Positions 26,333 to 39,261 of a DNA stretch of 40,111 nucleotides are shown here, in pieces (the stretch's first letter is position 1; the number at the start of each line of letters is the position of its first letter). The position numbers were made by a program, and so were the translations under genes. The notes beneath the pieces are model-generated. The model had not been told where the DNA came from, searched no databases, and saw only the letters and a list, made by a program, of their open reading frames with translations. Source of the DNA: an uncultured Gammaproteobacteria bacterium (GTDB taxonomy: Bacteria > Patescibacteriota > Microgenomatia > JAMCZE01). Where the stretch lies: positions 1 to 40,111 of the forward strand of contig CAZNUP010000002.1 in NCBI GenBank assembly GCA_964576435.1. The letters run 5' to 3'.

Positions 26333-26359
26333 CGCTATATGATATCATAAATTTGTAAA

Positions 26360-27148: not shown

Positions 27149-27150
27149 AC

Positions 27151-27208
27151 AAGCGAAAGTCCCGAGCTTTAACCCGGGACCAAGGCGAGAGTTTCTCGAC
27201 TTTCGCTT
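27151..27208. terminator. GC-rich structured inverted repeat between convergent genes (probable terminator)
   Basis: An 11-bp outer stem pairs AAGCGAAAGTC (27151-27161) with GACTTTCGCTT (27198-27208). It encloses two small hairpins (CCCG...CGGG and CGAG-AGTTT-CTCG). There is no T-run immediately adjacent. Confidence 0.45.
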
Positions 27209-27217
27209 AAACCCTCT

Positions 27218-27418
27218 TTATTTCTTTTTTAATAAAGGAAGGCCTGTTCTTTTGGATTCAATTACTGTGTAACCAACTGGGACTTCTTCAAGACCGTTTG
27301 GTCCAACAGCTCCTGCAAACCAATAGATCACTTGAGTTTTTCCTGACCCTTTGAGATCAACCTTCTTTGTGTGAAGGTAGTAGGTTTTGCCTTTGGAGTT
27401 TTTGTGTGCGTATGCCAT
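27218..27418 (-). CDS. Conserved-looking small hypothetical protein (66 aa)
   Basis: ORF preceded by a strong SD (GGGGGTGA, 8 nt upstream of the ATG). The product is basic and beta-rich. Confidence 0.6.
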   Translation of the reverse strand: MAYAHKNSKGKTYYLHTKKVDLKGSGKTQVIYWFAGAVGPNGLEEVPVGYTVIESKRTGLPLLKKK

Positions 27419-27502
27419 TAACTTTCACCCCCTTTCAAAAATTTCAGATTATATATCTGATTTCTTTATGCGGGGTCAATTTATACTTATTTTTTTGATT
27501 TG

Positions 27503-28690
27503 TCAAATCTGGGGGAGATCTCGAAGCAAATCTTGTCGCATCTTGTCAAACATTTGATACTTTTTTTCTACTTCTCCGGACCACTGATGGTGCCATATAG
27601 ACAATAAAAACTCATGATAGAACTTTTCTGCAACTTGTTTTTTCTGTGGATCCATTGGCACAGTTCTTACGCAGCGAATTAATTCTTTAGCACCACTTTC
27701 AACTAGGTCTGGATGCCACCATGGGAGGTTACTTAGCCAATATGGGTGACATGAGGAAATGCCTTTGTCAAAATGAACTTCAGCTGAATGAACCATGTGG
27801 GAAGGAATTTTTTCGGAACGAGTTTCTTTGAGCGCTTCATATGCCATATCAGCTAATTGATAGTATTTTTTTTGAAATTCATTATCTTTATTTAACCAAT
27901 AGGGGAAGGGATTATTGTTTTCTAGATCTTTTTTGGTTGTTTGCCAAGTTGAGGCAACTATTTGAGAATTTTCTGGAGCATCTTTTGGATTAAGCTCAGA
28001 AAGCTTTACAAAATCAAATTGCTTTTGACCGAAGAGATCTTTTAGGAAATTGATACGTTCTTGATAATGGTGACCAAACACTTCGGCATCGGTTGTGCAA
28101 ATTAATGGACTTTCTAAAGATTGTGCAAAGTTAGCAAATCTATCTGCTTGAAGCTCTGTAGGATAGCTTCTAATGAGTTCAGTAAGCTGTCTGGAATTTA
28201 CCATTAACTTGGTATTTTTATAGTTAAATGCCCCTGGTTTACCAAAAGATGTTTCATCTATAACTACAAAATTTGATAAGTTGCCAAATAATTCAACGGT
28301 TTTTTCGTTGACGGCTAATTCTGGAGGGAAGATACCTACAAAATTTTTAATTCCACAGAAATTTTCTAGAACTTTTTGGTTTTCTTTTAGTTGTCTTTCT
28401 AAAACATCAGGGTGAGTGAGAGGGGAGATGGGATGGTAAACAGGAGAATTTAGAAACTCAACTTTTCCTGACTCGGCAAGACGCCTAAATTTATGGCTTA
28501 AATCATGATTTGTGATTGCTTGAGTCTGAAGAAGGAGGGACCCTGATAAATTTATGGTAACTCTTGCATTTTGGGTCTCTAAAAGAAGATCACAAAGTCT
28601 TAAATAGCAGCTTCTTAGGATTTCTTCAGTAAGGTTTAAGCTTTGAGTGGGGGGCTGATAAAAATGTAGGACGAGAGCGAACTGAGTCAT
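27503..28690 (-). CDS. Glycoside hydrolase family 57 protein (alpha-glucan-active)
   Basis: N-terminal FALVLHFYQPP is the GH57 region-1 type motif. Genomic context is glgP and glgA. Confidence 0.75.
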   Translation of the reverse strand: MTQFALVLHFYQPPTQSLNLTEEILRSCYLRLCDLLLETQNARVTINLSGSLLLQTQAITNHDLSHKFRRLAESGKVEFLNSPVYHPISPLTHPDVLERQLKENQKVLENFCGIKNFVGIFPPELAVNEKTVELFGNLSNFVVIDETSFGKPGAFNYKNTKLMVNSRQLTELIRSYPTELQADRFANFAQSLESPLICTTDAEVFGHHYQERINFLKDLFGQKQFDFVKLSELNPKDAPENSQIVASTWQTTKKDLENNNPFPYWLNKDNEFQKKYYQLADMAYEALKETRSEKIPSHMVHSAEVHFDKGISSCHPYWLSNLPWWHPDLVESGAKELIRCVRTVPMDPQKKQVAEKFYHEFLLSIWHHQWSGEVEKKYQMFDKMRQDLLRDLPQI

Positions 28691-30258
28691 GGATTTGTAT
28701 TATATAGCTTTTCCCAGTAGTCTTTCAAAACACGCTTGGTTGTGAACTGTCCTTCAACGAGTCTTATGGTTCGTTTCATTCTTCCAAGCCACTCACTCGG
28801 GAGGCCTTCGTCGTTTATTTTATAGTAGAGAGGGAAGATTTCGGTTTCTAGGATTTTATAGAGATCTTGTGCTATATGCTCTTCTTTTAGAATCCAACCA
28901 ATGTCATCCCAATTTACTTCAGACATCCAACCATCATTTGTAGAAAATTCTAGATCTCCATTAGCTCCAGCTTTCATTCCTGAAGTACCTGAGGCTTCAA
29001 TACCTGGGGTGGGGGTATTTAACCAAACATCACTCCCAGCGACTAATTGCTGGGCAATTTTTAAATTGTAGTTTTCTAGGAAACAAATTCTGGTAGCTAA
29101 ATTTTTTGCTTCCAGAGTTGCCTTAATTTGATCTTTGATATCTTGGGCATCAGCATCATTGGGATTAGTTTGGCCAGCAATAACAAACTGGACTGAAGGA
29201 AAAAGGGATGTGATCTTTGTTAATTCATCGACATTTTTGAAAAGGAGGTCGGGACGTTTGTAGGAAACGAAGCGTCTAGCCCAGCTAATTGTCAAAGTAT
29301 TTGGGGAAAGCCTAATACCGGTTTCGTTTTCGAGGAAATCTAACATTTTTACTTTGTTGCCTTGATGGAGTTGCCAAAGGTCAAGATCAGAAATTGTCTC
29401 TGGATCAATGGGTTGTTTTTGCCATCGAGTTAGATTTATGCCGTTTGTTATGGTTACTAAATTGCTGTGAGGATGTAATTCTTTTTCTGCTTTGGCATGG
29501 GCAACACTTACGGCGCTGCCAATTTTTGTATAGCGCAAAAGAAAGTTTGTAGTTGCAAACATATCTTTATGAGTGGTATTGGTTCCTAACTCAAAGAGGG
29601 AATCCGTATTTTTGAGGAAGCTTAGCTTTTGTTTAAATTCCTCTTTTGATATATAGAGACCACCACCTGTTAAAACTGTGTGTTTGGTCGCTATGGAAAT
29701 CTTTTTGACTTCGTTTAGTTTTTCAGCATCTCCGTTTGATAACCCAAGAAGAGTCATGGCGGTGTGGCCTTCGTTTAGATGGAAATAGTCAGGAGCGAGG
29801 TTTTCAGACTTTAAGATTTTTACTAATCCGAACCCTAAAACAATTTGTTGAGAAAGCATAATGTCTTTGGTGGGACCATAGAGATGTTTTGTTATATTTC
29901 GATGCGATTCGTTATTTATTGCTATGTCTGTATCTAGTAGATAGACAGTCGATTGATTGTAGGTTTTTTTCCAGACTTGGAACCAAACTTCTTCAGTGCC
30001 TAAGTTAGTTGAAAAATATTTGATATTACCGGAAATGTCCTTTAAAGTTTCAAAGCCAAAAAGGGTAGGATCAATACGGCCTTTTTCGTGGTGAGCATGA
30101 AATCCGTGGCTATAGAAAATTCCAAGCCCAACCATATGAAATTCTTCAGGAGGAGTTTCTAACATTAGGTCGCCAGCTAGGACACCAAGGCCACCTGCAT
30201 AAATGGGCAAGTTATCTTCGAGTGCGTATTCCAAACAAACGTAGGCGACAGTTTTCAC
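28687..30258 (-). CDS. glgP: Alpha-glucan phosphorylase (GT35)
   Basis: VAYVCLEYAL...GGLGVLAGD at the N-terminus and a PLP-lysine motif EASGTSGMKAGANG. The ORF is open to TTG 30297, but GTG 30258 matches the usual N-terminus better. Confidence 0.9.
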   Translation of the reverse strand: MKTVAYVCLEYALEDNLPIYAGGLGVLAGDLMLETPPEEFHMVGLGIFYSHGFHAHHEKGRIDPTLFGFETLKDISGNIKYFSTNLGTEEVWFQVWKKTYNQSTVYLLDTDIAINNESHRNITKHLYGPTKDIMLSQQIVLGFGLVKILKSENLAPDYFHLNEGHTAMTLLGLSNGDAEKLNEVKKISIATKHTVLTGGGLYISKEEFKQKLSFLKNTDSLFELGTNTTHKDMFATTNFLLRYTKIGSAVSVAHAKAEKELHPHSNLVTITNGINLTRWQKQPIDPETISDLDLWQLHQGNKVKMLDFLENETGIRLSPNTLTISWARRFVSYKRPDLLFKNVDELTKITSLFPSVQFVIAGQTNPNDADAQDIKDQIKATLEAKNLATRICFLENYNLKIAQQLVAGSDVWLNTPTPGIEASGTSGMKAGANGDLEFSTNDGWMSEVNWDDIGWILKEEHIAQDLYKILETEIFPLYYKINDEGLPSEWLGRMKRTIRLVEGQFTTKRVLKDYWEKLYNTNP

Positions 30259-30439
30259 TTCTCTTTTAAGTATTAGATACTTTAAAAAAAGAATCAATAT
30301 TTCGAATAACTATAAGATCTTCGCATTTTTACGATAGAGTAGGTTTTTTATCCAACATTATCGTGAAGCAGCTTTTCACCTTGACTTTCTTAATTATATA
30401 TAGTTACCTAATTAGAGAGGCTAATTTGCGCGGCGCAAG

Positions 30440-33400
30440 TTGAGTTCGAAATACATGCAAACTGCTCTAGTTTCCCAGGCACAACTTATTGATCTAGCCA
30501 CGAAGGCGGGGTTTGTTTTTGGTTGGGGAGAGCCGGAGAACCGCATTAGATATTGGAGTACTATCGGTCTTATTCCACATGCAGTTAAAAAAGATGGGCT
30601 AGGACATTATCCTTGTTACACAGTAGATCTTCTTTTAAAGATCCAAGAACTTCAAAAGCAAGGACTACCTTTGGAAAACATTAAAGCAATTGTGAATAGG
30701 GAAGAGATGAGACTTAAGGTTGGTGAAATGCTCAATGGGGAGAGTGTTCCACAAATTCCTGAACCCGTTGTACCTAAACCCAGTGCTTTATATGAAGATA
30801 TCAAACCAGGACGTAAGTATTCAAAAAAAACAATTGCAGTTGTAGCTGGACTCTTATTTTTACTTCTTAGTGTTGGACTTGGTGGAGCTTATGGAATTTA
30901 TAAATTTAGAGAAGCAGGAAATATTTCAGCTGGATCAGTGCTTGCTGGATTTTCGGCTAAGAAGTTTTTACAGTTCAACCCAAGAGTTAAATTTGCAGGT
31001 TCTCCAGATGGTTTCTCGCTCTATGGAGGAGAGGTGGAGAGAAGGCTAACCGTAATTGGTTCTGATGTGGGACTTGATCAAAATCTTACTGCAACTTCTT
31101 CACCAACATTTGCTGGAATTAATCTTCCTGCCACAACTGGTCAGATTGTTGTTGGTGGAACAGGAATCATTACTGCTCCACAAGCAACTGGGACAATTGT
31201 TTTGGATACTGCGACTCAGACACTTACTAATAAAACGATTTCTGGATCTGATAACACATTTTCTAACATTCCTAACTCAGCTCTGTCTAATTCTTCCATA
31301 ACAATTAACACATCTGGATCACTTTCTGGTGGTGGCTCTGTGTCACTTGGTGGATCAATCAGTTTGTCGGCCTCAGGGGGAAGTAGTGGAACAACGAGCA
31401 CGGCATCGGCTGGGTTTTTAACTTTGCAAACATCCGGTGGAAATTTGGGAAATTCGGTGCTGTCCCAATCTGGGGGAACACTGCAAGTTGACGGCTTGAA
31501 TGCCGTCAGTGTTGGCAGCTATTCCTGCGTGATCACCACAAACGGCATTGTCACTGATTCTGGAGCGTGCCCATCTGGGGGCGGTTCAAAATGGCAGCTT
31601 AATGCTGGAGTTTTGGCGCCAAATGATGTGACACAATCGGTGGCTCTCGGAGATACAGCGAGTGCTTCTGCAAAGATTTTCCTGGACGGGGTCAGTGGAA
31701 ATGTTGGAATTGGAACTGGAATTCCTGGTGCAAATCTTCATGTTGTTGGAAAAGCAATAATAAAAGATTCCAATGATAATGTTTTTATTTCCGACGGAAA
31801 CACATATGGTGGGTCGGCTTGGAATGTGGCAATTGGTGCTGGGTCAATGAATGCGCTTCAAGGGAGTGCAGAAAGTAATGTTGCTGTTGGCTACCAGACT
31901 CTAAGATCAATGACTGTTGGCACAAATAATGTTGCACTTGGTAAGCAAGCGCTTTATTCTGCCGTTAACAGTTCGGGTACTGTTGGTCTTGGAGATAGGG
32001 CAGGTTTTATGTCAAATAGTTCTCAGAGTGTTTTTATTGGTACATCGGCTGGATTTTATGAAAACGAAGATTACAAACTTTACATTTCGACTAGCAATAC
32101 TGCCTATCCTTTAATCTATGGCGATTTTAATCAGGCATATGTTGGAATCAATGGCACATTGGCTGTTGGGATAGCGACGCCGTCAGGGACTTTGGATGTT
32201 CGGTCGAGAAATGGAACAATGCCAATTGCGTCAATTTCCGGAGCGTCTTCTTTACCGGCATTAGTTGTTGATAATAGTGTTGGAGATTTGTTTACAGCTT
32301 CTTCTTCCGGACTTTCAAGATTTGTGATTACACAGAATGGAAACGTGGGCATTGGAAGTTCTGTGCCAAATGCAAAGCTGGATGTGCCGGCAAGGGTGAA
32401 GTTTGGCGCGCCTACAGGAAACGCTGAATCAGTTTTCATAAACGGCGGAAATGAAACTGCGTCAGCGGCAACATATAACTTAGGGTTAATGACTGGAGCG
32501 TTGAATTCAATAACTAGTGGAGACTATAACACGGCTGTGGGATACAACGCAGGCTATAGTTTGACTAACACTGGAAACAATGTCTTGATGGGTTATGAGG
32601 CTGGCGCAGGGCTGACAGGGGACCAAAATGTCTATTTGGGAAATTTTTCTGGACCAGGATTTGGTCAAGGCGATGGTAATAGTGATGAAAATATTGCGAT
32701 TGGATATAGTGCTGCCAATAACCTTAAGGGATGGGGAAATATTATTATGGGTGCGCAGGCAGGACAATCTGTCACAACAGGGAATTATAATTTAATTCTT
32801 GGATATGATGCGGAAGTTTCAGGCGGAGCGACAAGTTATTCAATTGCTTTAGGATATTCGGCAACAACAAATGCAAGTAACCAAATGGTGGTAGGAGGAA
32901 GCGGTGGAGTTATTAATGATGTCTATTTTGGAAATGGAGTCACTTCATCTTCGCCAACAAGCCCAACCATTAACGCATCAGGAGGGAGTGGTAATAACAT
33001 AGCGGGAGGCAATTTAACTCTGGCTGGGGGAAAGGGAACGGGCAATGCTGCTGGGGGCGACATAATTTTCCAGACGTCAGACGCTGGAGTGTCGGGATCA
33101 ACTCTTCAATCGCTAACAACAAAAATGACGATTTCTGAACTTGGGCATGTTACTCCAGGAACTGATGATGCTCAAGATCTTGGAAGCAATAGTTTGAGAT
33201 GGAGGGATATATATTTGGGGCCGGCATCGCTGCATATTGGAACAGCGACTGGGGATGAAGGGTTGATCACGTATGACACAGGACTTAATAACACAAATAT
33301 TTCCAGCCCGGGGAATGTGATTATGCAAGCTTCTAGTGGGAACGTCGGAATTGGAACGACTGATCCACAATATAAACTAGATGTTGTTGGGTCAATGAGG

Positions 33401-35212
33401 GTGAACGGAGGAATCACGGTTAATTCATGCACGGGTTGTGCGGGAGCTTCACAGTGGCAACTTAATTCTGGGGTTCTTGCTCCAACTGATGTGACCCAGT
33501 CGCTGGCAATTGGGGGAACAGCAACCAGTTCAGCAAAGTTTCTCGTTTACGGAGTCAGTAGCTTGAATCCAGTAGCCAGCATTTCCGGGTCCTCATCTAA
33601 GGCGGCATTTATGATCGACAACACAGTTGGGGATTTGTTTACGGCCTCTTCCTCAGGACTCAACAGGTTTGTCATTAAACAAAATGGTGGAGTTGGCATT
33701 GGCGCTGCTAATGTTGGCAAGACGCTGGATGTGCGCGGACCTGTGGCGATTGCACAATCTTCTGGAGGAACGGGGGCGCTGGATATTGAACCACTTGCTA
33801 ATGGGGCAGAATTTTGGACGAACACTGGCTATGATCCATTGAGTCCAACGGCTGGCTGGACAAGCACAATGGCACTGGTTAATGGGAACGTCGGTGTGGG
33901 AACGACAACTGCTAGTTCACAAATGCACATTTATAATGGGGGTGGGAGTGCGACGGGGTTAACCGTGCAAAATGCAAATGCTGGAGGGAATCCATTTATT
34001 CGAGTGCAGGGAGCATCCAGCAGGTCGGTGAACGTCTACCTGAATGGTGGAGGAACTGACATCATGTCTTTGGCAGTGGCTTCTGATTCACCTTTTGCCC
34101 AGATACATGCGGCATCAAATTATGGGCTGCGATTTTATACCCATGGGGGAAGTTTGGCACAAACCATTGATATCAATGGTAATGTTGGGATTGGGAGCGA
34201 CACACCTGGAGTGAGACTGGATGTTGTGGGAAGCGGCACAGGTGGAACAATCGCCAGATTTGTTGATAACAATACCACCGGGTGCACGCTTGCAACTGGA
34301 GGCACTATCTCCTGTTCATCTGATGTCAATCTTAAAAAGAATATTGAGGAATTGCCGTATGGTCTTTCTGAAATAATGCGACTGCGACCGGTGGAATTCA
34401 ACTGGAAAGCTGATGCTGAAGGCCTTGCCAAGTCGCTTGGGTTTATTGCGCAGGATGTTGAACATGTGGTGCCAAAATTGGTGACCACAGACCCGGCTTC
34501 TGGAACGAAGCAACTTAACACGATCGGGCTGGTGCCGATTGTTGTTAAGGCTTTACAGGAGCAACAAGCGCAAATTGCGGGACTTCAGGAGATCCCACAG
34601 ATTAAGAGTGATTTGGAAAAGACACGGGAAGAGATGGCCAGTGTTTCAGCTAGACTTGCAAACGTTGAACAGAAAGTAGAAGTTGAATGGCCAACTTTGG
34701 ATCTTAGTGATTGGACAAACGCCGATTTAGCAACAGTTGCAGGCGACCTGAAAGTTACTGGCCTTACTCAACTTGCGGAAACTTCTATAGGTGGGAAATT
34801 GACGGTTGGACTATTAGCATTTGATGATCTTGACGCAGACATTAGTAGCCTTGGTGAAAAATTTAGCATTCAGGATGGGGCAGTGCTAATAGGCAAAAAT
34901 GGCGATATAACAACCTCTGGCAAAATTGAGGCTAAATCTATCCAAATTGAGAAAATTAACGTTCTCGGAGAGGAAACTTCTAGTAGTTCAGCTAGTCTCA
35001 AGGCTTCAATCGGTACTATATATATAGAACCAGGGGAGACATCAAAAGTAGTTCAAACTACAGCAATTACGGATAGGTCAAAAGTGTTTGTCAGCGTGGT
35101 TGAGGAACCAGTGGCAGTTTCAGCTCGAAAGATAGGAGATAATCAATTCGAGGTCAAGATTAAAGAGCCGCTTGGAAATCGAATCAGTGTGAATTGGTGG
35201 GTGGTGAACTAG
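30440..35212 (+). CDS. Giant membrane-anchored protein: MerR-like HTH, one TM helix, tail-fibre-like repeat region, S74-type intramolecular chaperone module, extra C-terminal domain
   Basis: HTH: RIRYWSTIGLIPH...YPCYTVDLLLKIQELQKQGLPLENIKAIV. TM helix at nt ~30832-30903. Six copies of the (S/N)G(N/G)VG(I/V)G...(L/M)(D/H)V motif. S74-like SSDVNLKKNIEEL...GFIAQDVEHVVP...VKALQEQQAQIAGLQ at nt ~34316-34590. TTG start at 30440, with ATG 30455 as an alternative. Confidence 0.85.
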   Translation: MSSKYMQTALVSQAQLIDLATKAGFVFGWGEPENRIRYWSTIGLIPHAVKKDGLGHYPCYTVDLLLKIQELQKQGLPLENIKAIVNREEMRLKVGEMLNGESVPQIPEPVVPKPSALYEDIKPGRKYSKKTIAVVAGLLFLLLSVGLGGAYGIYKFREAGNISAGSVLAGFSAKKFLQFNPRVKFAGSPDGFSLYGGEVERRLTVIGSDVGLDQNLTATSSPTFAGINLPATTGQIVVGGTGIITAPQATGTIVLDTATQTLTNKTISGSDNTFSNIPNSALSNSSITINTSGSLSGGGSVSLGGSISLSASGGSSGTTSTASAGFLTLQTSGGNLGNSVLSQSGGTLQVDGLNAVSVGSYSCVITTNGIVTDSGACPSGGGSKWQLNAGVLAPNDVTQSVALGDTASASAKIFLDGVSGNVGIGTGIPGANLHVVGKAIIKDSNDNVFISDGNTYGGSAWNVAIGAGSMNALQGSAESNVAVGYQTLRSMTVGTNNVALGKQALYSAVNSSGTVGLGDRAGFMSNSSQSVFIGTSAGFYENEDYKLYISTSNTAYPLIYGDFNQAYVGINGTLAVGIATPSGTLDVRSRNGTMPIASISGASSLPALVVDNSVGDLFTASSSGLSRFVITQNGNVGIGSSVPNAKLDVPARVKFGAPTGNAESVFINGGNETASAATYNLGLMTGALNSITSGDYNTAVGYNAGYSLTNTGNNVLMGYEAGAGLTGDQNVYLGNFSGPGFGQGDGNSDENIAIGYSAANNLKGWGNIIMGAQAGQSVTTGNYNLILGYDAEVSGGATSYSIALGYSATTNASNQMVVGGSGGVINDVYFGNGVTSSSPTSPTINASGGSGNNIAGGNLTLAGGKGTGNAAGGDIIFQTSDAGVSGSTLQSLTTKMTISELGHVTPGTDDAQDLGSNSLRWRDIYLGPASLHIGTATGDEGLITYDTGLNNTNISSPGNVIMQASSGNVGIGTTDPQYKLDVVGSMRVNGGITVNSCTGCAGASQWQLNSGVLAPTDVTQSLAIGGTATSSAKFLVYGVSSLNPVASISGSSSKAAFMIDNTVGDLFTASSSGLNRFVIKQNGGVGIGAANVGKTLDVRGPVAIAQSSGGTGALDIEPLANGAEFWTNTGYDPLSPTAGWTSTMALVNGNVGVGTTTASSQMHIYNGGGSATGLTVQNANAGGNPFIRVQGASSRSVNVYLNGGGTDIMSLAVASDSPFAQIHAASNYGLRFYTHGGSLAQTIDINGNVGIGSDTPGVRLDVVGSGTGGTIARFVDNNTTGCTLATGGTISCSSDVNLKKNIEELPYGLSEIMRLRPVEFNWKADAEGLAKSLGFIAQDVEHVVPKLVTTDPASGTKQLNTIGLVPIVVKALQEQQAQIAGLQEIPQIKSDLEKTREEMASVSARLANVEQKVEVEWPTLDLSDWTNADLATVAGDLKVTGLTQLAETSIGGKLTVGLLAFDDLDADISSLGEKFSIQDGAVLIGKNGDITTSGKIEAKSIQIEKINVLGEETSSSSASLKASIGTIYIEPGETSKVVQTTAITDRSKVFVSVVEEPVAVSARKIGDNQFEVKIKEPLGNRISVNWWVVN

Positions 35213-35342: not shown

Positions 35343-35690
35343 ATGGATTTTCAAGATAAAACACTCGTCTGCAAAGATTGCGGAAAAGAGTTCGTATGGA
35401 CAGCTTCTGAACAGCAATTTTATGCTGACAAAGGCTTTACCAACCCCCCTGTCAGATGCCCAGATTGTCGTGCTAAAAGAAAAGCACAGATGAATGATGG
35501 CGGCGGACGTGGAGGATACAATGGTGGAGGAGGCAACTACAATCAAGGACCAAGACAAATGTATGCAGCAACCTGCAGCAATTGTGGACAGCCTTGCCAA
35601 GTTCCTTTCCAACCAAGACTCGACGATGCCGGTAAACCAGTTAAACCAATTTATTGCAATAACTGTTACCGACAAATGAAAGGAAACTAG
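35343..35690 (+). CDS. Double zinc-ribbon protein with Gly/Arg-rich linker
   Basis: CKDC...CPDC and CSNC...CNNC pairs are separated by NDGGGRGGYNGGGGNYNQGPR. Strong SD GGAGGTGA at 35326-35333. The N-terminal half resembles the 'probable zinc-ribbon' (zf-trcl-like) family, recalled from memory. Confidence 0.8.
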   Translation: MDFQDKTLVCKDCGKEFVWTASEQQFYADKGFTNPPVRCPDCRAKRKAQMNDGGGRGGYNGGGGNYNQGPRQMYAATCSNCGQPCQVPFQPRLDDAGKPVKPIYCNNCYRQMKGN

Positions 35691-35759: not shown

Positions 35760-37844
35760 TTATTGAAGCTCTCCACTTGAAGTACCTACTTGAGGAGCTG
35801 GAGTAGTTGCAGCTTTAGGTAGGTTTGTTTGTGTGCCACTTGGTGAAGCTAGTGGTTCTTGTGGACCAGCTGGTGTAGTGCCAGTTTGGCCGGATTTAGT
35901 GGCTTCAGCGGCCGCGTCACTTGAAATCTTTTTATTTACTTCAACAATTTCAGCGTTTACTCTCACACAATCCGCGCCGGTATTAGAGACGGCACAGACT
36001 AGGGTAGAAGTGGTTTGTAGTTCTTGTAATGCTAATTGGTTTTGACCAAGACCTTTTAAGGCTTGAGCTAAGTTGTAGTGAGCATTAGCAAAGTCTGGTT
36101 TCAAGTTTACTGCAGTATTAAAGATTTGCGCGGCGTTTTGGTAGTCACCGGCGGCAAAGAATATGCCTCCTAGATCGAGTCTTAGTCTTGGGTTGGTTGG
36201 ATCAAGTTGAACGGCTTGGTTTTGAGAAGCAACCGCCCATTGATCTGCCCCTTGTGCGAAATTGATAAGGTTTCTATAGACTAGGGAAAGATTTTCCCAA
36301 GCACTGGCTCTTTGAGGGGCTAAGGCGGCACCAGCTCGTGCTTCTCTAATTGCTTGTTGAACAAGAGTTACCACGGTCTGTTTTTGTTCGTCGGTTAGAT
36401 TTGCTTGACCAGCTAAGGAATTAGCCAGGGCAAGATTAGTTTGAGAATAACTGATTCTATAGTTTGAGTTGTATGGATTTAGTTCCAAAGCTTTGATCTG
36501 AAGATCGTAAGTTTCTTTGCCTTGATTCTTTGCGGCTGCTTCTAAGCTTCTGGCAAAGTAGTAGTCAGCTAGGGTAAAGTTTCTTAAATATCCTGGCCAG
36601 ACTAGTGTTGTAAAAACGACAATGGTCAAGACTATAGTAGCAATGACTGGAAAGACTTTACTTGATTTTTCTTCTTCTTTTGAATAGAGACTGACACCTT
36701 TTAGTCTATAGAAAGCCATCAACATACCTGATGCTGCAAACAAAAGGAAGAGTGATAAAAGGGGGGCGGGGAAAATTAATCCGAGGACTAGGATTACAGC
36801 AATTGAACCAATGATACCTTTTTCCATTGGTGAGGTGCCTTCGAGTTTTAGCCTAGCTCTTGCTATTTGAACAAACTTCAAAATGTAGAAAGCGACAAAG
36901 GCAAGACCTAAGATGCCAAGACTTGTTAAGACTGAGAGGTAAAGGTTGGAACTGGTTGAGAACCTTAGATTCCAAAAATTACTGGCATTAAATTCGGTCG
37001 GTTTATATAGAGTAAAAGCGTCGAGTGTGTTATTTGGCCCAATGCCAAGAAGTGCATTCTTTGGGGTTTGAATTACACCTGTTGCAATTTTCCATCCAGA
37101 AACGTGATCCAAGAGAATTGGTCTATTTTGAAAAAGAACATATGCTGAGCAAGCCATGCCTATTACGATTAAGACAAGAAGAGGTATGGTGGCGCCTTTT
37201 TGCTTTAGACCGTGTGATTTTGAAAGGCCAATTACTAAAGGTAAAACAGCTGCTAAGAATAGAACTGCTGCTAGTGCTGAGCCGGCGATATTGAAGCCAG
37301 GGTTCAAAAGGAAAAAGTTAATATTTATCTTTAATACTGGATTTAATAGAACATAAAGTGTCTGAATGCCTATAAATGCACCAAGGATTGCTCCGACTAT
37401 GCCAAGAAATAGAGCAAATTTTTCAACAATGGTTTCCTTTTGAGGGATGAGGGAGAAAAGGAAATAAAGACAGACTCCGCCAACTAACATTAAAGTTTCA
37501 CCGGAAAGAGAAGCGTAGAAATTTGGTGTCAAAATAGCAGAGACAATTGCCAAGATGCCTAAGAGGAGTAGAGGAAGATCAAAGGAACTTTTGATCATTC
37601 CATATCTTTTCTGGAAAAGAGATCTTATTGACCAAACCAAAAGACCACCAATGCCTAGAAAGAAAATAAGCAGTTGTTTTGGGAATTCTAGTGGATCTGA
37701 AAGGAAGGGAACAAAGATTAAAGGAATAGCAATAATTGCGACAAAACAAATTGCTAAGACGATATTTCCAAGAGTCAAAGAAATTTGTTCTTTGCTTTCT
37801 TTACTAATGTTTTCCATTGGATTTGGAATTGTGACGTTGTCCAT
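35760..37844 (-). CDS. O-antigen ligase/polymerase-like polytopic membrane protein with C-terminal TPR repeats
   Basis: At least 10 hydrophobic helices over ~430 aa, then TPR-like repeats (AHYNLAQALKGLGQNQLALQELQ and others) and a low-complexity Thr/Pro/Gly tail. Confidence 0.8.
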   Translation of the reverse strand: MDNVTIPNPMENISKESKEQISLTLGNIVLAICFVAIIAIPLIFVPFLSDPLEFPKQLLIFFLGIGGLLVWSIRSLFQKRYGMIKSSFDLPLLLLGILAIVSAILTPNFYASLSGETLMLVGGVCLYFLFSLIPQKETIVEKFALFLGIVGAILGAFIGIQTLYVLLNPVLKININFFLLNPGFNIAGSALAAVLFLAAVLPLVIGLSKSHGLKQKGATIPLLVLIVIGMACSAYVLFQNRPILLDHVSGWKIATGVIQTPKNALLGIGPNNTLDAFTLYKPTEFNASNFWNLRFSTSSNLYLSVLTSLGILGLAFVAFYILKFVQIARARLKLEGTSPMEKGIIGSIAVILVLGLIFPAPLLSLFLLFAASGMLMAFYRLKGVSLYSKEEEKSSKVFPVIATIVLTIVVFTTLVWPGYLRNFTLADYYFARSLEAAAKNQGKETYDLQIKALELNPYNSNYRISYSQTNLALANSLAGQANLTDEQKQTVVTLVQQAIREARAGAALAPQRASAWENLSLVYRNLINFAQGADQWAVASQNQAVQLDPTNPRLRLDLGGIFFAAGDYQNAAQIFNTAVNLKPDFANAHYNLAQALKGLGQNQLALQELQTTSTLVCAVSNTGADCVRVNAEIVEVNKKISSDAAAEATKSGQTGTTPAGPQEPLASPSGTQTNLPKAATTPAPQVGTSSGELQ

Positions 37845-37848
37845 ATTT

Positions 37849-38370
37849 TTAATTTTTGATTAGGTAATTAATATTTGTTTTGTCTAAATTGTCAAGACTT
37901 GTTTTGGGAACGGCAATTAAATAGACATTGGATTTATCAGATCCAGAGTGCATTTTTACACTATTATTTAACGAAAGACTATCCACTTTATTCATAGTGT
38001 TTAGACCACTTGTATTTAAAGTGGAGACTAATACACCAATTACAAGACCTAGGAAAAGATAAGCAAAATTTGATGGTTTAACTTTGATTACAAAGTCGTT
38101 ATTAATAGCAGGAATTTGGACTAGAGATAGTTCTTGAACTGGTAACAAATTGGTTTTTTGCATTTGTGAGAGAGTAATGCCTTGGTTTTGCATGTTTTTA
38201 ATTTCCTCAATCTTATTTAGTGAATCTTTTGGATAACATCCCGTCATTTCACCATTGATCTTCTTTTTGATTGCTTTTGGAAGTAAGCCCAATTTTGTCA
38301 AATAGGCAATTTGCACTTTTGTAGTGCCAGTTTGATTTGTGAGTTCATTAATGGTTATTAAGTCAGACAT
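37849..38370 (-). CDS. Membrane-anchored MerR-like HTH protein (paralog of the N-terminus of the giant protein)
   Basis: ITINELTNQTGTTKVQIAYLTKLGLLPKAIKKK...GCYPKDSLNKIEEIKNMQNQGITLSQMQK aligns with residues ~15-85 of the 1590-aa protein. It has one TM helix (FAYLFLGLVIGVLVSTL) and a short external tail. Confidence 0.7.
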   Translation of the reverse strand: MSDLITINELTNQTGTTKVQIAYLTKLGLLPKAIKKKINGEMTGCYPKDSLNKIEEIKNMQNQGITLSQMQKTNLLPVQELSLVQIPAINNDFVIKVKPSNFAYLFLGLVIGVLVSTLNTSGLNTMNKVDSLSLNNSVKMHSGSDKSNVYLIAVPKTSLDNLDKTNINYLIKN

Positions 38371-38496
38371 ATTTTCTTTCCAAAAGAAATTCCTTCATTC
38401 CAGACTAAAAGTTTTTTTTGAAACAGTCAATAGGTCAAAATATGTCAAAAATGAAAAAAGTTGCAGTTTAGGTCTTATCTTTGTATTCTGATAGAT

Positions 38497-39261
38497 GTGA
38501 AGAAAATTGTTTTCGCTACAACTATTTTTATATCTTTTTTCCTGTCGATATTTTCAGGAGTGGTATTTGCTGATTACTCTGCGATCTCGATCGCCAATAC
38601 TTATTTTATTTCTGATAAACAAGCAAAGTATGGAGATATTATTAGTAATTCGACCAAGGGACTTGTTAGGACAACCTCGCCTTATCAGAGCACAATTTTG
38701 GGAGTATTAACCGAAGAACCTGTGGCAGTTTTTAAAGCAGACTCTGATGCGGAAAAACCCGTCGCAACAGGCGGGGTGGTTGTTGTTAATGTAAATAGTA
38801 GCAACGGTGAAATAAAGAAGGGGGACTTTGTTACTTCTTCTTCTACACCTGGTCAAGGGATGAAGGCCACTAATTCTGGTTATGCAATTGGAATGGCAAT
38901 TGATAACGCAAGTGGAGGGAAAGTTAATGTGGCGCTCCGAGTTGAATACGCGGAACTTTCTTCACCTCAAACACTCAAACGATTATTTGATTTACTTGGT
39001 AGGGGAATATTTCAAAATGTTGAGGACCCTGATAAGTTTGGACAACTTATCAGGTACATTGCCGCAGGTCTTGCGATCATTGCAGCAATACTGCTGGCGC
39101 TTTTGACTTTTTCCAGATCGGTTCCAAAGGCAATTGAAGCCATTGGTCGAAATCCGCTAGCTAGGACATCTATTTATCTGTCGTTGGTGGTTTCAGTGAT
39201 TTTGATGATTGTAATTATTGCTATGGGGATAGCGGGAGCAGTTATTGTTTTGCGAGTTTAA
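38497..39261 (+). CDS. Hypothetical exported protein with two C-terminal TM helices
   Basis: GTG 38497 gives a signal-peptide-like N-terminus (VKKIVFATTIFISFFLSIFSGVVFA). A beta-rich middle region precedes two hydrophobic helices at the C-terminus. The ORF is open from TTG 38461. Confidence 0.65.
   Translation: MKKIVFATTIFISFFLSIFSGVVFADYSAISIANTYFISDKQAKYGDIISNSTKGLVRTTSPYQSTILGVLTEEPVAVFKADSDAEKPVATGGVVVVNVNSSNGEIKKGDFVTSSSTPGQGMKATNSGYAIGMAIDNASGGKVNVALRVEYAELSSPQTLKRLFDLLGRGIFQNVEDPDKFGQLIRYIAAGLAIIAAILLALLTFSRSVPKAIEAIGRNPLARTSIYLSLVVSVILMIVIIAMGIAGAVIVLRV

What the first reader, a model, noticed from the sequence alone, without database searches (positions are those of the whole stretch)
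30440..35212. Giant protein joining a cytoplasmic MerR-like HTH to an extracellular tail-fibre-like region with an S74 autoproteolytic chaperone module
One uninterrupted 1590-codon ORF combines parts that do not normally occur together.
- Residues ~10-85 follow the MerR winged-HTH pattern (R-x-Y-x3-GL-x-P, then Y, a leucine-rich helix, and G-x-x-L-x-x-I-K): RIRYWSTIGLIPHAVKKDGLGHYPCYTVDLLLKIQELQKQGLPLENIKAIV.
- There is a single hydrophobic helix, TIAVVAGLLFLLLSVGLGGAYGIY.
- About 1100 residues of Gly/Ser/Thr/Asn-rich sequence carry six copies of the SGNVGIGT-x-P-x-x-KLDV-type motif seen in tail-fibre-like proteins.
- The segment SSDVNLKKNIEELPYGLSEIMRLRPVEFNWK...GFIAQDVEHVVPKLV...VKALQEQQAQIAGLQ matches the peptidase S74 / intramolecular chaperone domain. 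In endosialidases and phage tail spikes, that domain drives trimerisation and then cleaves at the Ser of its S-D-x-x-L-K-x-N-I motif.
- A further ~210-residue domain follows the S74 module.

The implied topology puts the DNA-binding domain inside the cell and a trimeric fibre outside. MerR regulators are normally soluble dimers.

Inference: this could be a one-component, membrane-tethered regulator whose sensor is an adhesin fibre. That would suit contact sensing in an episymbiotic lifestyle. Alternatively the HTH may be reused as a membrane-proximal anchoring or assembly domain. I know of no described system with this combination.
Basis: partly seen in the sequence, partly recalled or inferred. 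Interest (0 to 1): 0.8.

Follow-up and report, generated by a model that had tools for sequence, protein, structure and literature searches.

The report
Membrane-tethered MerR domain on giant fibre
A 1,590-residue protein of an ultra-small (CPR/Patescibacteria) bacterium really does join a cytoplasmic MerR-type DNA-binding fold, one membrane helix and an outside phage-tail-fibre-like stalk, and it is the enlarged version of a widespread, undescribed family of about 220-residue membrane-tethered MerR-like proteins.

Summary

It is not a one-off or an assembly artefact. Four independent assemblies hold syntenic orthologs. The N-terminal module (MerR-type winged HTH, flexible linker, one N-in TM helix) occurs in 166 cluster representatives and 107 species-representative loci, almost all labelled Patescibacteria. 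Most members are about 220 aa: HTH, TM and an ~85-aa β-domain. That same β-domain ends the giant protein, so the giant is this core with phage-tail-fibre and autochaperone modules inserted.

Related giant fibres carry other cytoplasmic N-termini: none, HTH_17, or tandem integrase SAM-like domains.

My best reading is a trimeric surface fibre whose cytoplasmic end is a membrane-tethered DNA-binding domain, ToxR-like in logic and closest to TnrA/GlnR in fold. DNA binding is inferred, not shown, and this clade's HTH is unusually non-basic. S74 cleavage cannot release the HTH, so it is not MYRF-like.

I found no description in the literature. Databases auto-annotate such proteins as "MerR family regulators".

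The parts
30363..30379 (+). GTGAAGCAGCTTTTCAC, a 5-N7-5 inverted repeat next to an invariant CTTGAC
   Evidence: Identical arms in the window, L001 and L002 but not kept in the more divergent L083. Unique in the window, though one match is not improbable by chance (0.55 expected). It has the same 5-7-5 geometry as TnrA/GlnR sites (PMC4335299). This is a candidate operator only.
30380..30404 (+). Conserved promoter-like block CTTGAC...TAATTATATATAGT
   Evidence: CTTGAC and the AT-rich TATATA block are invariant or nearly so in four orthologous loci. The consensus scan reports TTCACC-18-TATAGT, a 9/12 match.
30423..30441 (+).
   Evidence: The TTGC-N5-GCAA core is invariant in four loci while the 5-nt centre varies (GCGGC, GCCGT, ATTTC, GCGGT). 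0.03 matches are expected by chance. RNA folding is not better than shuffles: z = +0.3, -0.7, -1.7, 0.0.
30440..35212 (+). Giant ORF, 1590 codons from TTG; the likely true start is ATG 30455 (1585 aa)
   Evidence: Orthologs with the same architecture occur in independent assemblies: P0002 (L001), P0003 (L083), P0004 (L002).
30467..30733 (+). Cytoplasmic MerR-type winged HTH (residues 10-98): strand, a1, long conserved G-x-x-F-G-x-G-x-P loop, a2 recognition helix N34-R35-I-R37-Y38-W, two-strand wing, a3, a4
   Evidence: Pfam MerR_1. AF2 pLDDT 94-98. Foldseek best matches are GlnR/TnrA-DNA complexes, target-normalised TM-score 0.67-0.71. Profile hit to MerR 4ua1. Conservation map.
30734..30829 (+). 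Disordered, Pro-rich cytoplasmic linker (residues 99-130) ending in the basic stretch KPGRKYSKK
   Evidence: Mean pLDDT 50-67 over residues 101-130; sequence; charge bias.
30830..30901 (+). Single transmembrane helix (residues 131-154), N-in signal-anchor
   Evidence: Kyte-Doolittle 2.41; model helix 129-151; family-wide positive-inside bias, p = 2e-8.
30902..34315 (+). Extracellular Gly/Ser/Thr/Asn-rich fibre (residues 155-1292); it starts with the family 'VLA' motif at residue 168 and carries six GNVGIG-type motifs and repeated modules
   Evidence: Composition and motifs. PHROG tail-fibre and virion-structural hits: phrog_5481, phrog_6002, phrog_23837. Homologs are named 'tail fiber domain-containing protein'. 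No Pfam family passes threshold.
34316..34588 (+). Peptidase_S74 intramolecular chaperone / autoprocessing module (residues ~1293-1383): S1294...K1299 dyad, GFIAQ at 1334-1338
   Evidence: Pfam 52.1 bits; positions; weak sequence matches to the phage S16 long-tail-fibre chaperone 6f45 and the MYRF ICA domain 7dc3; defining residues from PMC3742440.
34529..34669 (+). Two long helices after S74 (residues ~1364-1410), a probable coiled coil
   Evidence: Helices 85-103 and 107-131 of the C-terminal model, at low confidence because it is a monomer model.
34685..34996 (+). Conserved pre-terminal region (residues 1416-1519), motif ...ATVSGDLKVxGxTxL...GLL...; probably trimeric beta-structure
   Evidence: Conserved in 17 family C-termini with S74, Peptidase_G2 or neither upstream. 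Not modelled confidently.
34997..35209 (+). C-terminal beta-domain (residues 1520-1590) ending ...SVNWWVVN; it is shared with the ~220-aa minimal family members
   Evidence: An HMM built only from small proteins hits residues 1507-1585 (1585-aa numbering) at i-E = 7.5e-6. In-register alignment. pLDDT 83-95. Foldseek: tailspike C-terminal domains in PDB at E = 5e-3 to 3e-2, and 30 phage proteins at E <= 1e-3 in BFVD, including K1-lyase C-terminal domains. No Pfam or NCBIfam model.
35760..37844 (-). Polytopic membrane protein with C-terminal TPRs (694 aa), the conserved partner gene of small family members
   Evidence: TPR hits only. Ortholog of the cluster found in 55 of 77 loci, 50 of them on the same strand as the small family gene, median gap 84 nt. 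Syntenic in L001, L002 and L083.
37849..38370 (-). Second family member in the window: 173-aa HTH-TM protein, 4 nt upstream of the TPR membrane gene on the same strand
   Evidence: Pfam MerR_1 25.5 bits. Small-only N-terminal HMM E = 1.4e-11. It has lost both recognition-helix arginines.

Best explanation
**What it is (shown).** This is a genuine single-pass, N-in membrane protein of a Patescibacteria (CPR) bacterium. From N to C it has:
- a cytoplasmic MerR-superfamily winged HTH without the MerR coiled coil or effector domain;
- a ~30-residue flexible linker and one TM helix;
- ~1,140 extracellular residues of phage-tail-fibre-like repeats;
- a Peptidase_S74 intramolecular chaperone with an intact Ser/Lys dyad;
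- a ~200-residue conserved C-terminal region ending in a tailspike-like beta-domain.

It is the expanded form of a Patescibacteria-wide family whose minimal members (~220 aa) are just HTH, TM and that beta-domain.

**How it most likely works (inferred).**
1. The C-terminal region and S74 nucleate a homotrimer outside the cell.
2. S74 then probably cuts at S1294. This leaves a trimeric fibre anchored by three N-terminal TM helices, with three MerR-type domains hanging on flexible tethers under the membrane.
3. Those domains most likely bind DNA in the TnrA/GlnR manner, with weak dimerisation on a short palindrome. That makes the protein a membrane-tethered DNA-binding protein, ToxR-like in logic, that couples a surface fibre to gene expression or to the nucleoid. 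The invariant TTGC-N5-GCAA repeat at its own promoter is the first candidate site.

The fibre itself is probably an adhesin or contact structure that can work without the HTH.
For: **Architecture and family**
- Domain calls.
- Confident MerR-fold model, with PDB fold matches essentially all MerR-family.
- The module occurs in 166 cluster representatives, is nearly always N-terminal and is followed by one TM.
- HMMs built only from small proteins recognise both ends of the giant (N-terminus 1.4e-17, C-terminus 7.5e-6).
- 107 species-representative loci, almost all labelled Patescibacteria; 77 family genes called there, mostly 215-250 aa, 51 with the C-domain.
- Four syntenic orthologous loci from different assemblies.
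- N-in topology.

**DNA binding**
- The most conserved family positions are the canonical MerR recognition-helix and wing positions: N34, R35, R37, Y38, K41, G43, P46, R50.
- R37 and Y38 align with TnrA R31 and Y32, which contact bases. R31A abolishes binding (PMC4335299; alignment).
- Family HTH domains are strongly basic (mean +6.7; 98% positive).
- The closest folds, TnrA and GlnR, also lack a coiled coil and dimerise on DNA.
- Related giant fibres with the same C-terminal region carry two other DNA-binding folds at the same cytoplasmic position: HTH_17 in one or two copies, and tandem Phage_int_SAM. Each is followed by one TM.
- Conserved inverted repeats lie upstream of the gene.

**S74**
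- Dyad and GFIAQ motif are present.

**C-terminal domain**
- Tailspike-like fold.
Against: - No DNA-binding experiment exists, and no site can be assigned to this protein.
- The giant clade's HTH has net charge 0 to +2 and has lost the 92%-conserved K41.
- TnrA's other key residue, R28, aligns with Asn34.
- The small syntenic paralog has lost both arginines, so the fold can persist in this family without the canonical contacts.
- MerR-like folds can be protein binders: CbpM (3ucs) is among the fold hits.
- A three-fold symmetric fibre does not match a two-fold palindrome.
- Fibres with no cytoplasmic domain exist, so signalling is not intrinsic to the fibre.
- If S74 cleaves, the conserved C-domain is detached, which is hard to fit with a simple sensor role.
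- The GTGAA-N7-TTCAC element is absent from L083, and neither palindrome recurs upstream of family genes in other loci.
- Trimerisation and cleavage are inferred from homology only.
Confidence: 0.5

Rival explanations
1. The MerR-like domain is not a DNA binder here. It is a cytoplasmic protein-protein module that docks the fibre's membrane anchor to a cytoplasmic or membrane partner, as RodZ's HTH docks MreB, or pairs with the HTH of the small paralog. Its role would be placing, assembling or exporting the fibre.
For: - The layout (cytoplasmic HTH, TM, extracytoplasmic beta-domain) equals RodZ's (PMC6052060, PMC9804626).
- CbpM, a MerR-like protein binder, is among the fold hits.
- The giant clade's HTH is almost neutral.
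- The adjacent small paralog has lost R35 and R37 yet is conserved in four loci.
- Small members are paired with a polytopic TPR membrane protein in 55 of 77 loci.
- The family-specific conserved G-x-x-F-G-x-G-x-P loop between a1 and a2 is not a MerR DNA-contact element.
Against: - The best-conserved positions are the MerR DNA-reading positions, and most family HTHs are strongly basic.
- Three unrelated DNA-binding folds occupy the same position in related fibres. That is easier to explain by selection for DNA binding than for one specific protein partner.
Confidence: 0.28
2. The HTH binds DNA for a purpose other than transcription. It would tether the nucleoid, or incoming or processed DNA, to the envelope complex, linked to natural competence.
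For: - In 37-49 of 77 loci the small family gene lies close to dprA (divergent, median 95 nt away), comM, comEC, comEA and an arsR-type gene. Identities were confirmed by Pfam.
- Integrase-type SAM-like and excisionase-type HTH_17 domains appear as alternative N-termini.
Against: - The synteny comes from related lineages (WWE3 and MAGs labelled Saccharibacteria) and may be inherited gene order.
- None of these competence genes is within this 40-kb window.
- No experimental link exists.
Confidence: 0.12
3. It is a MYRF-like or RIP-type latent transcription factor: proteolysis frees the HTH from the membrane so that it acts as a soluble regulator.
For: - One polypeptide holds a DNA-binding domain, an S74/ICA module and a TM helix, as in MYRF (PMC3742440).
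- There is a weak sequence match to the MYRF ICA domain 7dc3.
Against: - The domain order is HTH, TM, fibre, S74. Cleavage at S1294 is extracellular and about 1,140 residues beyond the TM, so it cannot release the HTH.
- The minimal family members have no protease module at all.
- No site-2 protease evidence was sought or found.
Confidence: 0.05
4. It is an artefact or a mobile-element gene: a mis-assembled or frameshift fusion of an HTH-TM gene with a fibre gene, or a prophage tail-fibre gene.
For: - PHROG tail-fibre hits.
- Higher GC in the fibre part (0.43-0.49 against 0.36-0.39).
Against: - The same fused architecture occurs in four independent assemblies and dozens of distant homologs.
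- The neighbours are housekeeping genes: glycogen metabolism, BacA, ATP synthase.
- No other phage structural genes are nearby.
- The GC rise fits the Gly/Ala-rich composition.
Confidence: 0.03

Closest known systems
TnrA/GlnR (minimal MerR-superfamily regulators of Bacillus)
   Same: - Best structural match to the N-terminal domain (4r4e, 4r24, 7tea; target-normalised TM-score 0.67-0.71).
- ~80-90-residue winged HTH without the MerR coiled coil.
- R-Y pair of the recognition helix conserved (R37/Y38 = R31/Y32).
- C-terminal extension after a4 used for something other than dimerisation (PMC4335299).
   Different: - TnrA and GlnR are soluble.
- They have an extra N-terminal helix for dimerisation.
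- TnrA R28 is Asn here.
- This family has a 6-residue conserved loop insertion between a1 and a2.
- This family is followed by a TM helix and an ectodomain.
ToxR-like transmembrane transcription regulators (ToxR, CadC, VtrA) and their co-component partners (ToxS, VtrC)
   Same: - Bitopic layout: cytoplasmic N-terminal winged HTH, one TM, extracytoplasmic domain.
- DNA is bound while the protein stays in the membrane (CadC: PMC5430869).
- There is a co-transcribed membrane partner (PMC9214523). The small family members are likewise followed by a membrane protein gene in 55 of 77 loci.
   Different: - ToxR-type HTHs are OmpR/PhoB-type, not MerR-type.
- Their ectodomains are small sensor domains, not kilodalton-scale trimeric fibres.
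- The partner here is a polytopic TPR protein, not a ToxS/VtrC-like barrel.
- No function has been shown here.
MYRF (eukaryotic membrane-bound transcription factor with a phage-derived ICA/S74 domain)
   Same: - The only well-studied protein that combines a DNA-binding domain, a Peptidase_S74-type intramolecular chaperone and a TM helix.
- Ser/Lys dyad and G-x-I-A-Q motif are shared.
- Trimerisation through the ICA domain (PMC3742440).
   Different: - MYRF's order is DBD, ICA, TM, so cleavage releases the DBD. Here the order is HTH, TM, fibre, S74, so cleavage is outside the cell and frees only the C-terminal ~300 residues.
- MYRF's DBD is Ndt80-type.
RodZ
   Same: Cytoplasmic N-terminal HTH, basic juxtamembrane stretch, one TM, linker, small C-terminal beta-domain outside. 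This is the same layout as the ~220-aa minimal family members. It is a precedent for an HTH used to bind a protein (MreB) rather than DNA.
   Different: RodZ's HTH is XRE-type and its C-terminal domain is DUF4115. Neither is detected here.
Phage tail fibres and tailspikes with C-terminal intramolecular chaperones (endosialidase, phage S16 gp37, GA-1 neck appendage)
   Same: - S74 module with its catalytic dyad.
- Gly-rich repetitive fibre.
- C-terminal beta-domain resembling tailspike C-termini.
- Close homologs swap S74 for Peptidase_G2 (P0003, P0004).
   Different: - It is encoded among housekeeping genes of a cell, not in a phage.
- It is anchored by an N-terminal TM helix.
- It carries a cytoplasmic HTH.
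- About 200 conserved residues follow the chaperone module.

Membership tests
MerR superfamily winged HTH (Pfam MerR_1, PF13411) | Profile match above the curated cut-off | tested here: met
   29.2 bits (whole protein) and 34.5 bits (N-terminal fragment) against a cut-off of 21.6. A family profile hits the MerR structure 4ua1 at E = 3.7e-6.
MerR superfamily winged HTH (Pfam MerR_1, PF13411) | Fold: a1-a2 HTH, two-strand wing, a3-a4 | tested here: met
   AF2 pLDDT 94-98 with elements E10-12, H13-22, H32-41, E49-51, E54-58, H61-73, H78-98. Fold hits are essentially all MerR-family.
Classical MerR-family regulators (MerR, CueR, BmrR, SoxR) | Long C-terminal antiparallel coiled-coil dimerisation helix (a5) | tested here: not met
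   The last helix ends at residue ~98 and is followed by a disordered Pro-rich linker and the TM helix. MerR-DNA-bind is not hit in this protein.
Classical MerR-family regulators (MerR, CueR, BmrR, SoxR) | C-terminal effector-binding (metal, drug or redox) domain | tested here: not met
   None is detected. NCBIfam CueR and MerR equivalogs score 13-18 bits against cut-offs of ~147-151.
Classical MerR-family regulators (MerR, CueR, BmrR, SoxR) | Binds a dyad operator inside a promoter with a 19-20 bp spacer and activates by DNA distortion | not testable with these tools
   Conserved inverted repeats exist upstream, but neither lies between clear -35 and -10 hexamers with a long spacer.
TnrA/GlnR family | Base-contacting residues R28, R31, Y32 of the recognition helix | tested here: inconclusive
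   R37 and Y38 match R31 and Y32 (96-98% conserved in the family). The R28 position is Asn34 (90% conserved), with Arg35 adjacent.
TnrA/GlnR family | Extra N-terminal helix a1' that mediates the weak dimer | tested here: not met
   The model shows a short strand (residues 10-12), not a helix, before a1.
Peptidase_S74 / intramolecular chaperone autoprocessing domain | Profile match above the curated cut-off | tested here: met
   52.1 bits against a cut-off of 22, residues 1294-1348, covering profile positions 1-57 of 58.
Peptidase_S74 / intramolecular chaperone autoprocessing domain | Ser/Lys catalytic dyad five residues apart, and the G-x-I-A-Q trimerisation motif | tested here: met
   S1294-D-V-N-L-K1299 and G1334-F-I-A-Q, compared with MYRF S587/K592 and GVIAQ.
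Peptidase_S74 / intramolecular chaperone autoprocessing domain | Trimer-dependent autocleavage that releases the C-terminal part | not testable with these tools
The monomer model of this region has low confidence.
ToxR-like transmembrane one-component regulators | Cytoplasmic N-terminal DNA-binding domain, single TM, extracytoplasmic C-terminal part | tested here: met
ToxR-like transmembrane one-component regulators | OmpR/PhoB-type winged helix (Trans_reg_C) | tested here: not met
   There is no Trans_reg_C hit, and the domain is MerR-type.
MYRF-type membrane-bound transcription factors | [quoted passage not shown] | tested here: not met
   The order is HTH (10-98), TM (131-154), fibre, S74 (1293-1383).
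RodZ | XRE-type HTH (HTH_25) and C-terminal DUF4115 | tested here: not met
   Neither Pfam family is hit in the giant or in the small members.
Undescribed Patescibacteria family 'MerR-like HTH - TM - WW-ending beta-domain' (defined here) | N-terminal module with L-I-x3-L-I-x2-A-x3-G-x2-F-G-x-G-x-P-x-N-R-[LI]-R-Y-[YW]-x-x-[IL]-G-x-[LI]-P, followed by one TM | tested here: met
   phmmer finds 166 representatives. The small-only HMM scores E = 1.4e-17 on the giant. Alignment A1.
Undescribed Patescibacteria family 'MerR-like HTH - TM - WW-ending beta-domain' (defined here) | C-terminal ~85-aa beta-domain ending F/V-x-W-W-[IV]-x-[NKD] | tested here: met
   The small-only HMM hits the giant's C-terminus at i-E = 7.5e-6. 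In-register alignment A5. 41 of 150 N-module proteins and 51 of 77 genomic members have it; the 41 and 51 counts use an HMM seeded from the same protein set.

The most novel reading that the evidence does not exclude
Patescibacteria have a lineage-wide class of trimeric, membrane-tethered MerR-type DNA-binding proteins. Their ectodomain ranges from a single tailspike-like beta-domain to multi-thousand-residue phage-derived fibres. Contact of the fibre with a host cell or surface, or loss of its autocleaved C-terminal cap, would be passed through the single TM helices and change how the three cytoplasmic HTHs engage DNA. In these very small cells that would directly couple host contact to transcription, or to DNA uptake and processing, given the dprA/comM/comEC/comEA neighbourhood of the small members. 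This would be a new principle of one-component signalling built from phage tail parts.
Probability: 0.15. Interest if true: 0.9.

Novelty: new variant of a known kind. Interest (0 to 1): 0.68.

Why it matters
CPR/Patescibacteria make up a large share of bacterial diversity. They have small genomes, and the cultivated members grow as epibionts on host bacteria (PMC10633639). How they sense and hold on to hosts is largely unknown.

This finding delimits an undescribed, widespread protein family that puts a MerR-type DNA-binding fold directly under the membrane and links it to surface structures built from phage tail-fibre parts. Current databases label such proteins 'MerR family transcriptional regulators', which hides the fact that they are membrane proteins, some of them thousands of residues long.

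If the HTH binds DNA, this is a new class of membrane-tethered regulators and a direct route from cell contact to the genome. If it does not, it is a new example of an HTH reused as a cytoplasmic docking module. Either way, the ~220-aa minimal members give a tractable handle for biochemistry, and for genetics if cultivable Saccharibacteria carry the family.

Tried and rejected
**Searches that returned nothing or little**
- Word-indexed searches with the N-terminal 180 aa and with a C-domain profile returned nothing although members exist. This is a method limit for short divergent modules. The exhaustive phmmer search and local HMMs were used instead.
- phmmer of the full protein against PDB sequences gave nothing. 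With the S74 region alone, the top hits to NSF-N are spurious and only 6f45 and 7dc3 are meaningful.
- The cluster-member look-up gave almost no taxonomy.
- Literature searches for a prior description found none. The library is incomplete, so absence is not proof.

**Ideas tested and dropped**
- RNA-hairpin reading of the upstream palindrome: folding energies do not differ from shuffles, and the hairpin is absent from the L083 minimum-energy fold.
- GTGAA-N7-TTCAC as a general operator: it is not conserved in L083 and is absent upstream of family genes in 76 other loci. A different palindrome (TTCTAT-N5-ATAGAA type) recurs in only 4-9 of those.
- My first guess that the 694-aa neighbour is an O-antigen-ligase-like protein: no Wzy_C or similar hit, only TPRs.
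- Prophage or tailocin origin: rejected on the neighbours.
- MYRF-like release of the HTH: rejected on domain order.
- Signal-peptidase cleavage at the conserved VL(A/G) motif: considered unlikely because the motif lies 19-48 residues past the TM.

**Partial result**
- The monomer AF2 model of the C-terminal 311 aa is usable only for the last ~70 residues.

Full report

Yes. Window 30440..35212 (+) is one uninterrupted ORF of 1590 codons counted from a TTG. The public protein set holds it as 1585 aa starting at the ATG of codon 6 (P0001). That start is more likely correct, because the bases just upstream are conserved as non-coding DNA in orthologous loci whose coding regions start elsewhere.

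- **Profile hits.** Pfam gives MerR_1 at residues 31-86 (29.2 bits for the whole protein, 34.5 for the N-terminal fragment; cut-off 21.6) and Peptidase_S74 at 1294-1348 (52.1 bits; cut-off 22). PHROGs adds tail-fibre and virion-structural families along the middle and C-terminal parts.
- **TM helix.** A single strongly hydrophobic segment lies at residues 131-154, with KPGRKYSKK before it.
- **Repeats.** Six G[NG]VG[IV]G motifs lie at residues 420, 634, 967, 1083, 1149 and 1247 in sequence with 13-22% Gly and abundant Ser, Thr and Asn.
- **S74 residues.** The S74 segment has S1294 and K1299 five residues apart and GFIAQ at 1334-1338. The MYRF study showed that the Ser/Lys dyad is needed for cleavage and noted that the perfectly conserved GVIAQ lies in the region required for trimerisation of the phage proteins (PMC3742440).

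**2. The N-terminal domain is a genuine MerR-superfamily winged HTH.**

An AlphaFold2 model built on 52 family sequences has pLDDT 94-98 over residues 11-90. Its order of elements is strand, a1, a2, two-strand wing, a3, a4. It is followed by a low-confidence linker (mean pLDDT 50-67 over residues 101-130) and a confident TM helix at 129-151.

The listed top 50 Foldseek PDB hits are almost all named MerR-family proteins. The best are the GlnR-DNA and TnrA-DNA complexes, with target-normalised TM-scores of 0.67-0.71. A profile of the family hits the MerR structure 4ua1 at E = 3.7e-6 across the recognition helix, the wing, a3 and a4.

The hallmark MerR coiled coil and effector domain are absent. 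In this respect the domain resembles TnrA and GlnR, which lack the coiled coil and form weak dimers only on a 17-bp site (PMC4335299).

**3. It is not a one-off.**

- **How common the module is.** An exhaustive phmmer search with residues 1-180 finds 166 cluster representatives at E <= 1e-3, from 54 to 6,437 aa. The module is almost always at the extreme N-terminus and is followed by one hydrophobic helix around residue 100-180.
- **The minimal form.** The commonest form is a ~220-aa protein: HTH, TM and an ~85-aa C-terminal domain ending ...F-(N/D)-W-W-(V/I)-x-(N/K). The giant ends the same way (...SVNWWVVN).
- **Independent test.** HMMs built only from the small proteins recognise the giant's N-terminus (1.4e-17) and its C-terminus (i-E 7.5e-6), and hit the C-termini of 30 proteins longer than 800 aa. 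Small and giant C-domains align in register.
- **Conclusion.** The giant is therefore the family core with ~1,350 residues of fibre, autochaperone and conserved pre-terminal sequence inserted between the TM and the terminal domain.
- **Databases.** Neither Pfam nor NCBIfam has a model for the C-domain or for the small proteins as a whole. NCBI auto-names giant relatives 'MerR family DNA-binding transcriptional regulator'.

**4. Distribution and context.**

A scan of one genome per species gave 107 confirmed loci. Nearly all are labelled Patescibacteria: WWE3, Saccharibacteria, Shapiro-, Woyke-, Wildermuth- and Nomurabacteria. A few MAGs are labelled 'Gammaproteobacteria', one of them a 0.9-Mb chromosome, and these are presumably mislabelled. 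One is labelled Nanoarchaeia. The window's Rho is 63% identical to that of a WWE3 MAG.

In 77 loci where I could call the gene, most members are 215-250 aa, seven exceed 1,000 aa, and 51 have the C-domain. The conserved neighbours are:
- a ~750-aa polytopic membrane protein with C-terminal TPRs, present in 55 loci, on the same strand in 50, with a median gap of 84 nt;
- DprA, divergent, in 43 loci;
- ComM in 37, ComEC in 43, ComEA in 43 and an ArsR-type regulator in 49.

The window itself contains the membrane-TPR ortholog (35760-37844, minus strand; E = 6e-57). Directly upstream of it on the same strand is a second family member of 173 aa (37849-38370; small-only HMM 1.4e-11). The competence genes are not in this window.

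The order phosphorylase, giant gene, (zf_Tbcl), TPR membrane protein, small HTH-TM gene recurs in three other assemblies (L001, L002, L083). That rules out a chimeric assembly and a prophage.

**5. Topology.**

Across 93 family proteins with a clear TM, the 15 residues before the helix carry 3.04 K+R on average against 1.92 after it (Wilcoxon p = 2e-8). The HTH is therefore cytoplasmic and everything after residue 154 is outside.

**6. The ectodomain.**

The fibre part has no Pfam family above threshold, but it matches phage tail-fibre PHROGs and many proteins named 'tail fiber domain-containing'.

Close homologs are mosaics. P0002 adds BNR-like repeats. P0003 and P0004 replace S74 with a Peptidase_G2-type autochaperone. 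More distant relatives carry FG-GAP/VCBS, Kelch, dockerin or an intein.

After S74 come two long helices, then a conserved region, then the terminal beta-domain. Only the last ~70 residues fold confidently as a monomer (pLDDT 83-95). That domain resembles the C-terminal beta-sandwich of phage tailspikes and depolymerases:
- PDB: 9k4a, 7eea and Sf6 (4urr) at E = 5e-3 to 3e-2;
- BFVD: 30 phage proteins at E <= 1e-3, several of them 'K1 capsule-specific polysaccharide lyase C-terminal domain'.

By analogy with phage fibres, I infer that the C-terminal region nucleates a trimer and that S74 then cleaves at S1294. Neither step is shown.

**7. Does the HTH bind DNA?**

*For:*
- The most conserved family positions are the MerR DNA-reading and structural positions: N34, R35, R37, Y38, K41, G43, P46, R50, G55, P58.
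- R37 and Y38 align with TnrA R31 and Y32, which contact bases.
- 98% of family HTHs are net positive, with a mean of +6.7.
- Giant fibres with the same C-terminal region carry two other DNA-binding folds at the same cytoplasmic position: HTH_17 in one or two copies, and tandem integrase SAM-like domains. Each is followed by one TM. Recruitment of different DNA-binding folds to one position argues that DNA binding is the selected property.
- Upstream of the giant gene, a TTGC-N5-GCAA inverted repeat is invariant in four loci while its centre varies, and an invariant TGCAAA lies ~20 nt further on. RNA folding does not explain this conservation.

*Against:*
- The giant clade's own HTH has net charge 0 to +2 and has lost K41.
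- TnrA R28 aligns with Asn.
- The small syntenic paralog has lost both arginines yet is conserved.
- CbpM shows that MerR-like folds can bind proteins.
- Some homologous fibres have no cytoplasmic domain at all.
- A three-fold fibre does not match a two-fold site.
- No site can be assigned to this protein.

**8. Mechanism I commit to (confidence about 0.5).**

It is a trimeric, N-terminally anchored surface fibre, probably an adhesin or contact structure, whose three cytoplasmic MerR-type domains bind DNA while tethered to the membrane. In logic it is ToxR-like. In fold and in lacking a coiled coil it is TnrA/GlnR-like.

The rivals are:
- a RodZ-like docking role for the HTH (0.28);
- DNA tethering linked to competence rather than transcription (0.12);
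- MYRF- or RIP-like release of the HTH (0.05). The domain order makes S74 irrelevant for this;
- an artefact or a phage gene (0.03).

**9. Novelty.**

The parts are known. Bitopic HTH proteins and S74-bearing fibres are both known kinds. What I could not find described is the family itself (MerR-type HTH, TM, tailspike-like domain, with fibre-inserted giants). I checked through six of the literature searches and one directly read paper on Patescibacteria genetics, within an incomplete library. I therefore rate it a new variant of a known kind, of considerable interest for CPR biology, with function still to be shown.

Noticed in passing
window 37849-38370 (-): This is a second member of the same HTH-TM family: 173 aa, one TM near residue 105, short ectodomain ending TNINYLIKN, no C-domain. 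Its recognition helix has lost both conserved arginines (R35 to Q, R37 to A), as have its syntenic equivalents in L001, L002 and L083.
   Followed up: partly
window 35760-37844 (-): This 694-aa polytopic membrane protein has C-terminal TPRs. Its orthologs lie immediately downstream of small family members in 55 of 77 Patescibacteria loci, which suggests an operon. The membrane part has no Pfam or NCBIfam family, and my O-antigen-ligase guess was not supported.
   Followed up: partly
L003-L082 (species-representative loci), e.g. L067:4557-5435, L061:491-2032, L050:3796-4797, L010:2056-2751: The small family genes sit in a conserved neighbourhood with dprA (divergent, ~95 nt away), comM, comEC, comEA and an arsR-type regulator in 37-49 of 77 loci. 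This may be a functional link to natural competence or simply inherited gene order.
   Followed up: partly
proteins P0018 (2416 aa) and P0075 (2242 aa): These giant fibres have the same C-terminal domain, but their cytoplasmic N-terminus is two tandem phage-integrase SAM-like (core-binding) domains followed by one TM. One source names P0075 'site-specific recombinase XerD'.
   Followed up: partly
window 30941-30949 (residues 168-170) and homologs: A V-L-(A/G) motif lies 19-48 residues after the TM in the 11 HTH_17/MerR-type fibre proteins checked and in the plain signal-anchored ones, but was not found in the two with Phage_int_SAM N-termini. It opens a conserved stalk (...L-x-[LF]-N...[LI]-D-Q-[DN]-[LV]-[ST]-x-x-S-[ST]-P-x-F-A). 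Its role is unknown, and it lies too far from the TM for typical signal-peptidase cleavage.
   Followed up: no
window 35343-35690 (+): This 115-aa protein has two treble-clef zinc-finger domains (zf_Tbcl and zf_Tbcl_2) and lies directly downstream of the giant gene. The same gene follows the giant homolog in L083.
   Followed up: no
window 38461-39261 (+): This 266-aa protein has N- and C-terminal hydrophobic segments and a sub-threshold Phage_cement_2 hit (22.3 bits against a cut-off of 24). It is syntenic in L083 with the same weak hit, and its function is unknown.
   Followed up: no
window 31000-35000: The fibre-coding part of the ORF has GC 0.43-0.49, against 0.36-0.39 in the flanks and 0.38 in the kb that holds the HTH/TM-coding part. 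This fits Gly/Ala-rich coding, though acquisition of the modules from elsewhere cannot be excluded.
   Followed up: no
L002:109-822 and 6597-6953; L084:12492-13762: AbiE-type toxin-antitoxin genes flank giant homologs in two loci. A bAvd-like gene (an accessory protein of diversity-generating retroelements) lies near the giant gene in L002.
   Followed up: no
proteins P0175, P0242, P0198, P0201 and others (600-880 aa): Another subclass has the same HTH-TM module and GNVGIG-type fibre motifs but a different conserved C-terminus ending ...FNI(L/F)LL(V/A)YDQ(I/V).
   Followed up: no
window 23404-30297: A glycogen or alpha-glucan metabolism cluster lies directly upstream of the giant gene: GT5 starch-synthase-like, GH57 and a phosphorylase-like gene, interspersed with an epimerase-family gene, a methyltransferase and BacA. 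The phosphorylase-giant adjacency is conserved in L001 and L083.
   Followed up: no
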